The notes under the pieces are model-generated. The model saw only the letters and a list, made by a program, of their open reading frames with translations, had not been told where the DNA came from and did not search any database. From an uncultured Nitrospiraceae bacterium (GTDB lineage: Bacteria > Nitrospirota > 9FT-COMBO-42-15 > HDB-SIOI813): a stretch of DNA of 64,000 bases. This document shows, piece after piece, positions 19,429 to 27,673 of this stretch; the first letter of the stretch is position 1, and each line of letters starts with the position of its first letter. A program made the translations under genes and the position numbers. The stretch spans positions 311,960-375,959 of the forward strand of contig CAZTAM010000003.1 of NCBI GenBank assembly GCA_964611625.1, written 5' to 3'.

Positions 19429-20607
19429 TCAGGCCTCCTCAACATTCTCAGCGATCTCGACATTCTCAGTATTCTCAGCACTTCCGGTCTTCTCAGTTAC
19501 GAGTTCCTGTCCTGCCTCCATCTCTCTGGCCATACTCTCGGAAATCTCCGATTCCTTTTCCTTGGCGCGCTTCTGTTCATATTCAGTTTCACTGATTATA
19601 TCAATTTTCCAATTGGTCAGCTTGGCTGCAAGCCTGACATTCTGACCTTTTTTACCTATTGCAAGTGACAACTGCTGATCTGTTACTACTACAAGAGCTG
19701 ATTTCTCCTCTTCATTTATTCCAACCCTGTCAACTACAGCAGGACTCAGGGCCTCAGCAATAAAAATCCTCGGGTCGTCAGACCATGGAATAATATCTAT
19801 CTTCTCCCCTCTTAATTCTCGAACTACTGCCTGCACCCGGGATCCCTTCATTCCAACACAAGCCCCGACGGGATCTACAGCAGTGTCCTTGGATAAGACG
19901 GATATCTTTGTCCTGTCACCAGGTTCTCTTACAACATCTTTTATCTCCACTATCCTCTCATAAATTTCCGGAACTTCAGTTGCAAATAACTTGCTGACAA
20001 AATTTGGATGACTCCTGGACAGGATAAGCTGGGGGCCTTTTGCAGACGGCTTGACCTCCAGCAGAAATGCCTTGATACGGTCACCTCGTTTAAAGGTCTC
20101 CCTCGGGATCTGTTCTTTTGCCGGCAACAGACCCTCTGTCTTACCAAGATCAACGATATAATTTCTGTTCTCGTGCCCTAAAATTACTCCATGCACCAGC
20201 TCTCCCTGACGGTCAATGAAATCCTTATAGACAGTGTCCCACTCAGCCTCCCTGACCTTCTGAAATATAACCTGCTTTGCAGTCTGCGCAGCAATTCTGC
20301 CAAAATCACCTACCTCAATCAATGCCCCTATCTCATCTCCCAGTTCAGCCTCATTATCCATCAACCTTGCTTCATTAAGAGATATTTCTTCCTTGGGGTT
20401 GGTTACATCCTCAACAATTTTCTTGATTAATATGACCTGAATCTCTCCGGATTTAGGGTCAATCTCTACCTGAATATTATCCGAAACTCCATAGCGTTTT
20501 TTTGCCGCTGATAAAAGAGCAGACTTTACAGCATCAAGAATAATTGCCCCGTTAATACCCTTTTCCCTGCTAATCTGTTCTATTACATTAATAAGTTCTC
20601 TGCTCAT
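19429..20607 (-). CDS. nusA: Transcription termination/antitermination factor NusA
   Basis: S1 and tandem KH domains; SD GGGAGGA upstream of ATG. Confidence 0.95.
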   Translation of the reverse strand: MSRELINVIEQISREKGINGAIILDAVKSALLSAAKKRYGVSDNIQVEIDPKSGEIQVILIKKIVEDVTNPKEEISLNEARLMDNEAELGDEIGALIEVGDFGRIAAQTAKQVIFQKVREAEWDTVYKDFIDRQGELVHGVILGHENRNYIVDLGKTEGLLPAKEQIPRETFKRGDRIKAFLLEVKPSAKGPQLILSRSHPNFVSKLFATEVPEIYERIVEIKDVVREPGDRTKISVLSKDTAVDPVGACVGMKGSRVQAVVRELRGEKIDIIPWSDDPRIFIAEALSPAVVDRVGINEEEKSALVVVTDQQLSLAIGKKGQNVRLAAKLTNWKIDIISETEYEQKRAKEKESEISESMAREMEAGQELVTEKTGSAENTENVEIAENVEEA

Positions 20608-20632
20608 TGAGAATCATTTCCTCCCTTTCAAA

Positions 20633-20662
20633 CAAAAAAAGTGGGCATAACCACCGCCCACT
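20633..20662 (-). terminator. Intrinsic-terminator-like hairpin in the nusA 5' leader (candidate attenuator)
   Basis: Minus strand reads AGTGGGC-ggtggttat-GCCCACT followed by TTTTTTTG, ending about 26 nt upstream of the nusA start and directly before its SD. Confidence 0.4.
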
Positions 20663-20830
20663 CAATCAACTAGAGCTCAACTGTGTATTTTTCTTATAGC
20701 ATAGTAAAATTAAAAAAGCAAGGCAAAGTAAATATCTTTCAAACCCTTCTTAAGACACCTGCATCATCTTGACTTTTAAAATCAATTATTGGAATATGTA
20801 GTGAATTTTCACATATCAGGTTATAAGCAT

Positions 20831-20917
20831 GCCGGGATGGTGAAACAGGTAGACGCACGGGACTCAAAATCCCGCGGGGGCAACCCCATGGGGGTTCGAT
20901 TCCCCCTCCCGGCACCA
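20831..20917 (+). tRNA. tRNA-Leu (anticodon CAA), type II
   Basis: Acceptor GCCGGGA/TCCCGGC, anticodon loop CTCAAAA, long variable arm, T-arm GGGGG-TTCGATT-CCCCC, encoded CCA. Confidence 0.85.
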
Positions 20918-27640: not shown

Positions 27641-27673
27641 AGCCCACTGGAGTAATCCAGTGGGCTTTTTCTT
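27641..27673. terminator. Bidirectional Rho-independent terminator
   Basis: AAAAAA-AGCCCACTGG-agtaat-CCAGTGGGCT-TTTTTCTTT between convergent RRM and lipoprotein genes. Confidence 0.65.

What the first reader, a model, noticed from the sequence alone, without database searches (positions are those of the whole stretch)
20633..20662. Terminator-like hairpin inside the nusA 5' leader: candidate autoregulatory attenuator
Seen in sequence: on the minus strand a GC-rich hairpin (AGTGGGC...GCCCACT) followed by seven T residues sits about 26 nt upstream of the nusA start and directly before its SD, so any nusA promoter must lie upstream and transcripts must read through it. Established: NusA modulates intrinsic termination and nusA operons are autoregulated at leader terminators in E. 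coli and B. subtilis. Also, no rimP gene precedes nusA here.
Basis: partly seen in the sequence, partly recalled or inferred. Interest (0 to 1): 0.45.

Follow-up and report, generated by a model that had tools for sequence, protein, structure and literature searches.

The report
Known rimP-leader terminator before nusA
The hairpin is a real transcription stop signal in the leader of the nusA-infB operon: a copy of the widespread, already described 'rimP-leader' attenuator, which sits directly in front of nusA here only because this lineage deleted the rimP gene that normally lies between them.

Summary
On the minus strand, GAGUGGGCG-GUGGUUA-UGCCCACUU (20663-20639) runs into a U7 tract. It lies 26 nt before the nusA ATG and just before the GGGAGG Shine-Dalgarno. 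It folds at -14.1 kcal/mol, and no other hairpin of this quality exists in the window (0.005 expected by chance).

It is the 'rimP-leader' attenuator of Naville & Gautheret (2010): an intrinsic terminator with an unusual conserved GGGc...gCCC stem upstream of rimP-nusA-infB in most bacteria.

A covariance model built only from other clades picks this hairpin as the single hit in the window (28.5 bits, E 0.0017). Sister Nitrospirota (NusA 85-89% identical) carry the same divergent tRNA-Leu, promoter and hairpin, followed by rimP then nusA. In the window's clade rimP was excised, apparently between the leader T-run and the TTTT at the rimP stop.

A conserved promoter (TTGCTT, 17 nt, TGcTATAAG) lies about 25 nt upstream of the hairpin. 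No antiterminator structure is conserved.

NusA-stimulated premature termination, giving autoregulation as shown in E. coli and B. subtilis, is the most likely mechanism. It is inferred, not shown. Verdict: a new member of a known kind, of modest interest.

The parts
20716..20721 (-). Predicted -35 hexamer TTGCTT of the nusA-operon promoter
   Evidence: TTGC[T/A]T is invariant in all 10 distinct leaders of the clade, while sequence further upstream is unalignable. It sits 17 nt from the -10. This is a prediction; no TSS data exist.
20693..20701 (-). Predicted extended -10, TGcTATAAG
   Evidence: TGnTATA[A/T][G/A] is conserved in the clade whether rimP or nusA follows. The implied TSS is near 20686 (A of UACACA), about 24 nt before the hairpin.
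20664..20686 (-). Short 5' leader segment (UACACAGUUGAGCUCUAGUUGAUU) before the hairpin
   Evidence: UACACA is invariant and AGCUCUA nearly invariant in the clade. It is too short to hold an aptamer, and no alternative pairing is conserved.
20639..20663 (-). Terminator hairpin: 5' arm GAGUGGGCG, loop GUGGUUA, 3' arm UGCCCACUU, carrying the GGGC...GCCC rimP-leader signature
   Evidence: Covariance model R1, built from other clades, scores 20631-20667(-) at 28.5 bits, E 0.0017, the only significant hit in the window.
20634..20640 (-). U7 tract (followed by GUUUG): the predicted termination point, giving a leader RNA of about 50 nt
   Evidence: The tract is T7 here and T9 in relatives.
20620..20625 (-). 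nusA Shine-Dalgarno GGGAGG, 12 nt before the ATG
   Evidence: It aligns with the rimP-nusA intergenic SD of relatives that keep rimP, which marks the downstream edge of the rimP deletion.
19429..20607 (-). nusA (392 aa), first gene of the operon in this lineage
   Evidence: Pfam NusA_N, S1, KH_5 and KH_2. Followed by infB, DUF503, rbfA, a DHH-family gene and truB.
20831..20917 (+). Divergent tRNA-Leu(CAA): conserved upstream neighbour of the leader, not part of the transcript
   Evidence: ARAGORN and Rfam. The same divergent tRNA sits upstream of the leader in both rimP-less and rimP-containing relatives.

Best explanation
The hairpin is the intrinsic (factor-independent) terminator of the 'rimP-leader' transcription attenuator. 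This element heads the rimP-nusA-infB operon in most bacteria.

Proposed mechanism. Transcription starts at a conserved sigma-70-type promoter about 24 nt upstream. RNA polymerase transcribes the GAGUGGGC...GCCCACUU hairpin and U7 tract. A fraction of complexes release a leader RNA of about 50 nt. The rest read through into nusA-infB-rbfA-truB. By analogy with E. coli and B. subtilis, NusA bound to the elongating polymerase raises termination at this hairpin. Excess NusA therefore lowers operon transcription, which is negative autoregulation.

In this lineage rimP, normally the first gene, has been deleted. The junction lies between the leader T-run and the T-run at the rimP stop codon, so the ancestral leader now abuts the nusA ribosome-binding site.

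Shown here: the terminator anatomy, its statistical significance, the conserved promoter, orthology with rimP leaders, family membership, and purifying selection. Inferred: that termination is partial, and that NusA is the effector.
For: 1. Anatomy and significance. It is a canonical terminator and unique in the window.
2. Orthology. Relatives with NusA 85-89% identical (L185, L186, L187, L001, L189-L191) have a divergent tRNA-Leu, the same promoter and the same hairpin, followed by rimP then nusA. Relatives with NusA 89-94% identical (L171-L184) and the window have the same block followed directly by nusA.
3. Family signature. Among 146 NusA loci from many phyla, 133 have an energy-defined terminator just upstream of rimP. 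Of those terminators, 126 of 158 carry GGGy...rCCC, against 25 of 322 other terminator-like hairpins in the same loci. Motif density is 1.18 per kb in the leader zone against 0.017 per kb elsewhere.
4. Covariation. Outer stem pairs covary: 75 cells changed on both sides against 17.8 in shuffles, and 96.9% of cells are paired.
5. Membership test. A covariance model built without the window's clade finds this hairpin as the only hit in 128 kb (28.5 bits, E 0.0017). The window's clear bidirectional terminator at 27.6 kb scores only about 11 bits.
6. Selection. Four-fold degenerate sites of nusA differ by 38-62% within the rimP-less clade, yet the stem is unchanged.
7. No rival structure. No antiterminator or aptamer is conserved, and no Rfam riboswitch or leader family matches.
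8. Literature. The rimP-leader is described with exactly this GGGc...gCCC motif and NusA proposed as effector (PMC2965389). In E. coli, terminators t1 and t2 lie upstream of rimP, and transcripts rise when NusA termination is impaired (PMC6511841). In B. subtilis, NusA-stimulated termination in its own leader autoregulates nusA (PMC12288461, citing Mondal 2016). E. coli t2 reads CUGGGCUUUAGGCCCUUUUUUU.
Against: No transcript data exist for this uncultured Nitrospirota, so the promoter, TSS, termination efficiency and NusA dependence are all predictions.

The hairpin is strong (-14 kcal/mol) with an uninterrupted U7 tract. From my recollection of Mondal 2016, which I could not retrieve, the terminators most dependent on NusA in B. 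subtilis are weak ones. Basal termination here could therefore be high and NusA might add little.

The reason the stem sequence, and not just the pairing, is conserved is unexplained. It could point to a different or additional trans-acting factor.

Within the close clade there is no covariation at all, so the structure there rests on family-wide evidence and on conservation.
Confidence: 0.75

Rival explanations
1. A constitutive, unregulated partial terminator. The hairpin simply damps output of a strong promoter, or insulates the operon from the back-to-back tRNA-Leu promoter region, with no feedback from NusA or any other factor.
For: The hairpin is strong with a perfect U7 tract. No alternative structure is conserved. 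Nothing here measures NusA dependence.
Against: A generic damper would not need a specific stem sequence. Yet GGGy...rCCC occurs in 80% of rimP-leader terminators against 8% of other terminator-like hairpins and persists across phyla. NusA-dependent control of this operon is documented experimentally in two distant model bacteria (PMC6511841, PMC12288461).
Confidence: 0.12
2. An attenuator controlled by a factor other than NusA. Candidates are cold-shock (Csp) RNA chaperones that melt the hairpin, as I recall reported for the E. coli metY-rpsO region, or RimP, IF2 or another operon product that recognises the conserved stem.
For: The sequence-level conservation of the stem implies a specific partner that has never been identified (PMC2965389 names RimP as an alternative candidate). 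The operon is cold-induced in E. coli (PMC6511841).
Against: RimP is disfavoured. The hairpin stays invariant in a clade where rimP is no longer in the operon, while synonymous sites diverge by 38-62%. No relocated rimP was found among close homologues. No evidence here bears on Csp or IF2. This rival can also coexist with NusA feedback.
Confidence: 0.1
3. The promoter and terminator delimit an independent small RNA gene of about 50 nt, and nusA is transcribed from elsewhere.
For: The promoter-to-terminator unit is compact and highly conserved, including the loop and the UACACA 5' end, within the clade.
Against: There is no room for another promoter, since only 26 nt including the SD separate the T-run from the ATG. 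No co-oriented gene lies upstream to supply read-through, because the tRNA-Leu and DUF2703 genes are on the other strand. Upstream leader sequences differ completely between phyla, while only the terminator is shared. No Rfam sRNA family matches.
Confidence: 0.03

Closest known systems
rimP-leader transcription attenuator, general form (Naville & Gautheret 2010, Genome Biol 11:R97, Fig. 2b; PMC2965389)
   Same: It is an intrinsic terminator in the 5' UTR of the rimP-nusA-infB operon. The stem carries the GGGc...gCCC signature, with a purine-rich 5' arm and a C-rich 3' arm. A U-stretch follows. No antiterminator is present. It lies 4-130 nt from the first gene (26 nt here). A model built from 74 such leaders scores the window hairpin at 28.5 bits.
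   Different: The first gene behind the leader is nusA, not rimP, because rimP was deleted in this Nitrospirota clade. The instance, from an uncultured Nitrospirota, has not been described.
E. coli metY-rimP-nusA-infB leader terminators t1 and t2, with NusA autoregulation (Plumbridge 1985 and Nakamura 1985 as cited in PMC2965389; PMC6511841); Rfam RF01770
   Same: t2 (CUGGGCUUUAGGCCCUUUUUUU) has the same UGGGC...GCCC core and U7 tract just before the first ORF. A tRNA gene neighbours the leader in both.
   Different: E. coli has two tandem hairpins (t1 is CCCg...cGGG), a co-transcribed tRNA-fMet, and RNase III sites. The window has one hairpin with a longer 9-bp stem, and its tRNA-Leu is divergent and not co-transcribed. 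RF01770 scores 102 bits on E. coli but gives no hit on the window.
B. subtilis ylxS(rimP)-nusA leader attenuator (Mondal et al. 2016, as summarised in PMC12288461)
   Same: The logic is the same: NusA-stimulated intrinsic termination in the operon's 5' leader controls nusA expression.
   Different: I could not compare sequences, because the paper was not retrievable and no B. subtilis DNA was available to the tools. The B. subtilis leader is long (about 180 nt according to PMC2965389) against about 80 nt here.

Membership tests
rimP-leader attenuator (general form, Naville & Gautheret 2010) | Rho-independent terminator: a hairpin followed by a U-stretch | tested here: met
   A 9-bp stem at -14.1 kcal/mol followed by U7. 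It is the only such site in the window, with 0.005 expected.
rimP-leader attenuator (general form, Naville & Gautheret 2010) | Conserved GGGc(...)gCCC motif in the terminator stem | tested here: met
   The stem reads GAGUGGGC...GCCCACUU. This matches the family consensus RRARYGGGY...RCCCRYU derived from 84 distinct leaders. CM R1 gives 28.5 bits, E 0.0017, against 15.2 bits for the next hit.
rimP-leader attenuator (general form, Naville & Gautheret 2010) | Located in the 5' UTR of the rimP-nusA-infB operon, 4-130 nt from the first gene | tested here: met
   It lies 26 nt before the first gene of the operon. That gene is nusA here. The orthologous leader precedes rimP in sister lineages L185-187, L001 and L189-191, so the position is homologous and altered only by the rimP deletion.
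rimP-leader attenuator (general form, Naville & Gautheret 2010) | No conserved antiterminator or ligand-binding structure | tested here: met
   RNAalifold on 9 clade leaders predicts only the terminator hairpin. Only about 24 nt lie between the predicted TSS and the hairpin. No Rfam riboswitch or leader family matches.
rimP-leader attenuator (general form, Naville & Gautheret 2010) | Premature termination that responds to NusA (the proposed effector) | not testable with these tools
   This needs in vitro transcription with and without NusA, or term-seq. Support comes only from E. coli and B. subtilis literature (PMC6511841, PMC12288461).
Rfam RF01770 'Gammaproteobacteria rimP leader' | Two tandem hairpins (CCCg...cGGG then GGGc...gCCC) matching the 102-position covariance model at 47 bits or more | tested here: not met
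   No RF01770 match appears even at E up to 10 on the 171-nt leader or at E up to 1 on 3.5 kb. The positive control, E. coli, gives 102 bits. The window has a single hairpin.
Riboswitch, T-box or ribosomal-protein leader | A conserved sensor domain upstream of the terminator, with mutually exclusive antiterminator pairing | tested here: not met
   The only hits are sub-threshold chance matches that align the terminator itself (L20_leader at 19.4 bits against a 58.7 gathering score). No alternative helix is conserved.
3' terminator of an upstream gene, or a bidirectional terminator | A co-oriented gene ending just upstream, or an A-tract and T-tract flanking the hairpin between convergent genes | tested here: not met
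   The upstream features (tRNA-Leu and DUF2703) are on the opposite strand and point away. There is no A-tract 5' of the stem. ORFs of at least 20 aa in the gap are spurious overlaps.

The most novel reading that the evidence does not exclude
The invariant purine-rich 5' arm (RRARYGGGY) makes this hairpin a dedicated, sequence-specific sensor for NusA through its S1-KH domains, perhaps aided by the upstream UCU(A/G)C(C/U)U box. On this reading it is not a generic terminator that NusA merely stimulates. The rimP-less Nitrospirota clade is then a natural experiment. It would show that the conserved stem is maintained for control of nusA and infB, and that RimP is not the trans-acting factor. RimP may even have been lost outright in this clade.
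Probability: 0.3. Interest if true: 0.55.

Novelty: new member of a known kind. Interest (0 to 1): 0.28.

Why it matters
The finding itself is a textbook-type element. The rimP-leader was called 'the most ubiquitous transcription attenuator' in 2010, and NusA autoregulation through leader terminators is established in E. coli and B. subtilis.

What this instance adds is modest but real, in three ways.

1. It extends the element to uncultured Nitrospirota and confirms the phylum-spanning GGGy...rCCC signature on a new, independent data set.
2. A clean natural deletion of rimP leaves the leader under strong purifying selection. This argues that the element serves nusA and infB control, and it weakens the published alternative that RimP is the factor recognising the stem.
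3. It flags an annotation trap. In relatives, gene callers start nusA at an ATG inside the hairpin.

Why the stem sequence, rather than just its pairing, is conserved across phyla is still an open mechanistic question.

Tried and rejected
- Repeat or mobile element: rejected, because the hairpin sequence is unique in the window even with 3 mismatches allowed.
- rimP remnant in the 220-nt gap, or rimP elsewhere in the window: tblastn found nothing.
- Known RNA family: no Rfam family other than tRNA reaches threshold. RF01770 does not match.
- Antiterminator or alternative fold: the 236-nt upstream region folds no better than shuffles (z = 0.12), and the consensus fold gives only the terminator.
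- tRNA anticodon-stem or T-arm mimicry, suggested by the GGG/CCC stem: rejected, because loops vary freely in length (3-13 nt) and sequence across the family.
- DNA operator for a dimeric regulator: rejected, because the spacing between the half-sites varies.
- uORF in the hairpin (ATG in UUAUGCCCAC): it is not conserved, since several relatives have UUUUGCCCAC, and it has no SD.
- Relocated rimP in the rimP-less clade: every close RimP homologue I could place sits next to nusA. This does not prove loss.
- Mondal 2016 full text: not held, so the features of NusA-dependent terminators rest on my memory and on a review.
- An extended upstream motif shared by all phyla: not found. Leaders form 49 unrelated clusters. 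Only a post-hoc UCU(A/G)C(C/U)U box is enriched, in 9 of 49 clusters.

Full report
**1. The observation**

Reading the minus strand gives ...UUGAUUGAGUGGGCGGUGGUUAUGCCCACUUUUUUUGUUUGAAAGGGAGGAAAUGAUUCUCAAUGAGC.... The exact 23-mer AGTGGGCGGTGGTTATGCCCACT lies at 20640-20662(-) and is unique in the window, even with three mismatches allowed.

With G-U closing pairs, the stem is 9 bp (20663-20655 with 20647-20639) and the loop is 7 nt. It is followed by U7 then GUUUG. The fold is -14.1 kcal/mol (z = -3.4; 0 of 200 shuffles fold as well).

It is the best terminator-like site in the consensus scan of 14-26 kb. A stricter scan of my own required at least 7 perfect pairs, at least 4 G-C, a loop of 3-9 and at least 6 T. 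It finds this as the only hit in both strands of the whole window, against 0.005 per window in dinucleotide shuffles.

The T-run ends 26 nt before the ATG at 20607, and GGGAGG lies at 20625-20620.

ORF 19429-20607(-) is NusA (NusA_N, S1 and KH domains). It is followed by infB, DUF503, rbfA, a DHH-family gene and truB.

Upstream lie a divergent tRNA-Leu(CAA) at 20831-20917(+), then DUF2703 on the + strand and an AcrB-type pump on the - strand. There is no rimP in the window and no remnant of one. All factual parts of the finding are therefore confirmed.

**2. Relatives show what the hairpin is**

NusA similarity places the window in an uncultured Nitrospirota clade. Contigs encoding the identical NusA carry the identical leader. 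Their strain-level differences all lie upstream of the predicted promoter.

Relatives with NusA 89-94% identical (L171-L184) also lack rimP. They share the block of divergent tRNA-Leu, about 100-150 nt, hairpin and nusA, even though the genes beyond the tRNA differ: DUF2703 here, an FKBP-type isomerase or an amine oxidase elsewhere.

The decisive observation comes from the next relatives out (NusA 85-89%: L185, L186, L187 and L001, and later L189-L191). They have the same divergent tRNA-Leu, the same promoter-like block and the same hairpin (AAGUGGGCGGUGGUUUUUGCCCACUUUUUUUUU). But there the hairpin is followed by rimP and then nusA.

The hairpin is therefore the ancestral leader element of a rimP-nusA-infB operon. 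In the window's clade rimP has been removed. The junction (T-run, GAAAGGGAGG) corresponds to the leader T-run on one side. On the other side it corresponds to the ...GAGUUUUAG/UAAGGGAGG end of rimP in relatives. This suggests a deletion between two T-runs (an inference).

**3. Promoter and leader**

Across ten distinct leaders of the clade, alignable sequence begins abruptly at TTGC[T/A]T. It continues through a 17-nt spacer to TGnTATA[A/T][G/A], an extended -10, and then UACACA.

In the window these elements are at 20721-20716 and 20701-20693. That predicts a start near 20686, about 24 nt before the hairpin and about 79 nt before the ATG.

No promoter can fit in the 26 nt between the T-run and the ATG. 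No co-oriented gene lies upstream either. Transcripts entering nusA must therefore pass through the hairpin.

RNAalifold on the transcribed part predicts only the terminator hairpin and no competing helix. The larger upstream region folds no better than shuffled sequence.

Four-fold degenerate sites in nusA differ by 38-62% among rimP-less lineages and by 66-80% against rimP-containing ones. Yet the stem and the promoter hexamers are unchanged. This is strong purifying selection, and it continues after the loss of rimP from the operon.

**4. A phylum-spanning signature, and its identity**

Searching all fetched loci for GTGGGC-N5-12-GCCCAC gave hits upstream of rimP in other Nitrospirota, Desulfobacterota, Alphaproteobacteria, Ca. 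Entotheonella and others.

I quantified this in three ways:
- Of 146 loci with enough upstream sequence, 106 have GGG[C/U]-N3-14-[G/A]CCC plus a T-run in the zone just upstream of rimP. That is 1.18 per kb against 0.017 per kb elsewhere.
- With an energy-based, motif-blind terminator scan, 133 of 146 loci have a terminator there. Of those terminators, 126 of 158 carry the motif, against 25 of 322 other terminator-like hairpins in the same loci.
- The outer stem pairs covary (U-A, U-G and C-G; G-C and A-U). In total, 75 cells changed on both sides against 17.8 in shuffles, and 96.9% of cells are paired. Loops vary from 3 to 13 nt.

This is exactly the 'rimP-leader' of Naville & Gautheret (2010). 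They call it 'the most ubiquitous transcription attenuator'. [quoted passage not shown]

E. coli's t2 terminator before rimP reads CUGGGCUUUAGGCCCUUUUUUU.

As a formal membership test I built a covariance model from 74 leaders that exclude the window's clade. I searched the whole window with filters off. The hairpin is the single significant hit (28.5 bits, E 0.0017). The next hit scores 15.2 bits, and the window's obvious bidirectional terminator at 27.6 kb scores about 11 bits. All clade relatives score 27.5-37 bits at the homologous place.

Rfam's RF01770 is the gammaproteobacterial two-hairpin version. It scores 102 bits on E. coli but does not match the window. No Rfam family covers the leaders of 20 diverse loci.

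**5. Mechanism**

The best-supported model is premature intrinsic termination in the leader, with its extent set by NusA.

The supporting steps are of different kinds:
- Shown here by sequence and comparison: the terminator anatomy, its position in the obligatory transcript path, and its conservation.
- From the literature: in E. coli, operon transcripts rise when NusA-dependent termination is reduced, and t1 and t2 lie upstream of rimP (PMC6511841; refs 42 and 43 of PMC2965389).

That this particular hairpin terminates only partially, and responds to NusA, is inference.

A caution follows from its strength. The hairpin is strong and has an uninterrupted U tract, so basal termination may be high.

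The rimP-less clade weakens the alternative that RimP recognises the stem, since the stem stays invariant without rimP in the operon. However, I could not establish whether rimP is lost or merely relocated. Every close RimP homologue I could place is adjacent to nusA.

**6. Verdict**

The element is a new instance of a known, widespread attenuator, with a lineage-specific twist: the rimP deletion puts it directly in front of nusA. Interest is modest.

The residual open question is not specific to this window. It is why the stem sequence itself is conserved across phyla.

Noticed in passing
window 20669-20676 (-); also leaders in L008, L022, L023, L028, L030, L093, L104, L106, L107: A short box UCU(A/G)C(C/U)U (AGCUCUAG/AGCUCUAC in the window's clade) sits 8-15 nt upstream of the rimP-leader hairpin in the window clade and in many Desulfobacterota leaders. 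It occurs in 9 of 49 leader clusters against 0.34 expected in shuffles. The pattern was chosen post hoc and the clusters may be related. It is not universal.
   Followed up: partly
L171-L176 and L179-L181 (relatives of the window's nusA): Gene callers start nusA at the ATG inside the hairpin (UUAUGCCCAC), because a T9 run puts it in frame. This gives a false N-terminal extension MPTFF... in proteins P0001 and P0006. In the window, the same ATG opens only a 6-codon ORF.
   Followed up: partly
window 27641-27666, both strands: A perfect 12-bp palindromic hairpin, AAGCCCACTGGAGTAATCCAGTGGGCTT, is flanked by A and T runs (-22 kcal/mol). It looks like a textbook bidirectional terminator. It shows that this genome uses canonical intrinsic terminators.
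   Followed up: no
window 20769-20774 (+): TTGACT, the likely -35 of the divergent tRNA-Leu(CAA) promoter, is conserved across the clade (seen as AAAGTCAAG on the minus strand). It lies about 47 bp from the nusA -35, so the two promoters are back to back.
   Followed up: no
L002, L003, L006, L007 (about 30-80 nt before the nusA start): More distant Nitrospirota that keep rimP have an additional hairpin in the rimP-nusA spacer, just before the nusA Shine-Dalgarno. An example is GUAGUCCU...AGGGCUAC followed by a U-rich stretch in L002 and L003. It may be a second, internal attenuator or a processing site.
   Followed up: no
L161-L170 (same species as the window): Short-read assemblies break repeatedly at window position about 20748 and inside the tRNA-Leu gene. 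Strain variants (single-base changes and 1-2-nt indels) all lie upstream of the predicted nusA promoter, and none lies between the -35 and the ATG.
   Followed up: partly
L013, L022, L023, L092, L096, L102, L106, L122, L125: Several Desulfobacterota-type loci have a co-oriented tRNA gene (3' end ...GCCCGCUCCA, Gly-like) 60-100 nt upstream of the rimP-leader hairpin. This echoes metY in E. coli, and a tRNA next to this leader appears to be a recurrent arrangement.
   Followed up: no
window-wide (64 kb) and the close RimP homologues examined (L185-L187, L189-L191, L001): No RimP homologue could be assigned to the rimP-less clade. All close RimP proteins whose context could be read are next to nusA. 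Outright loss of this widely conserved ribosome maturation factor is possible but unproven.
   Followed up: partly
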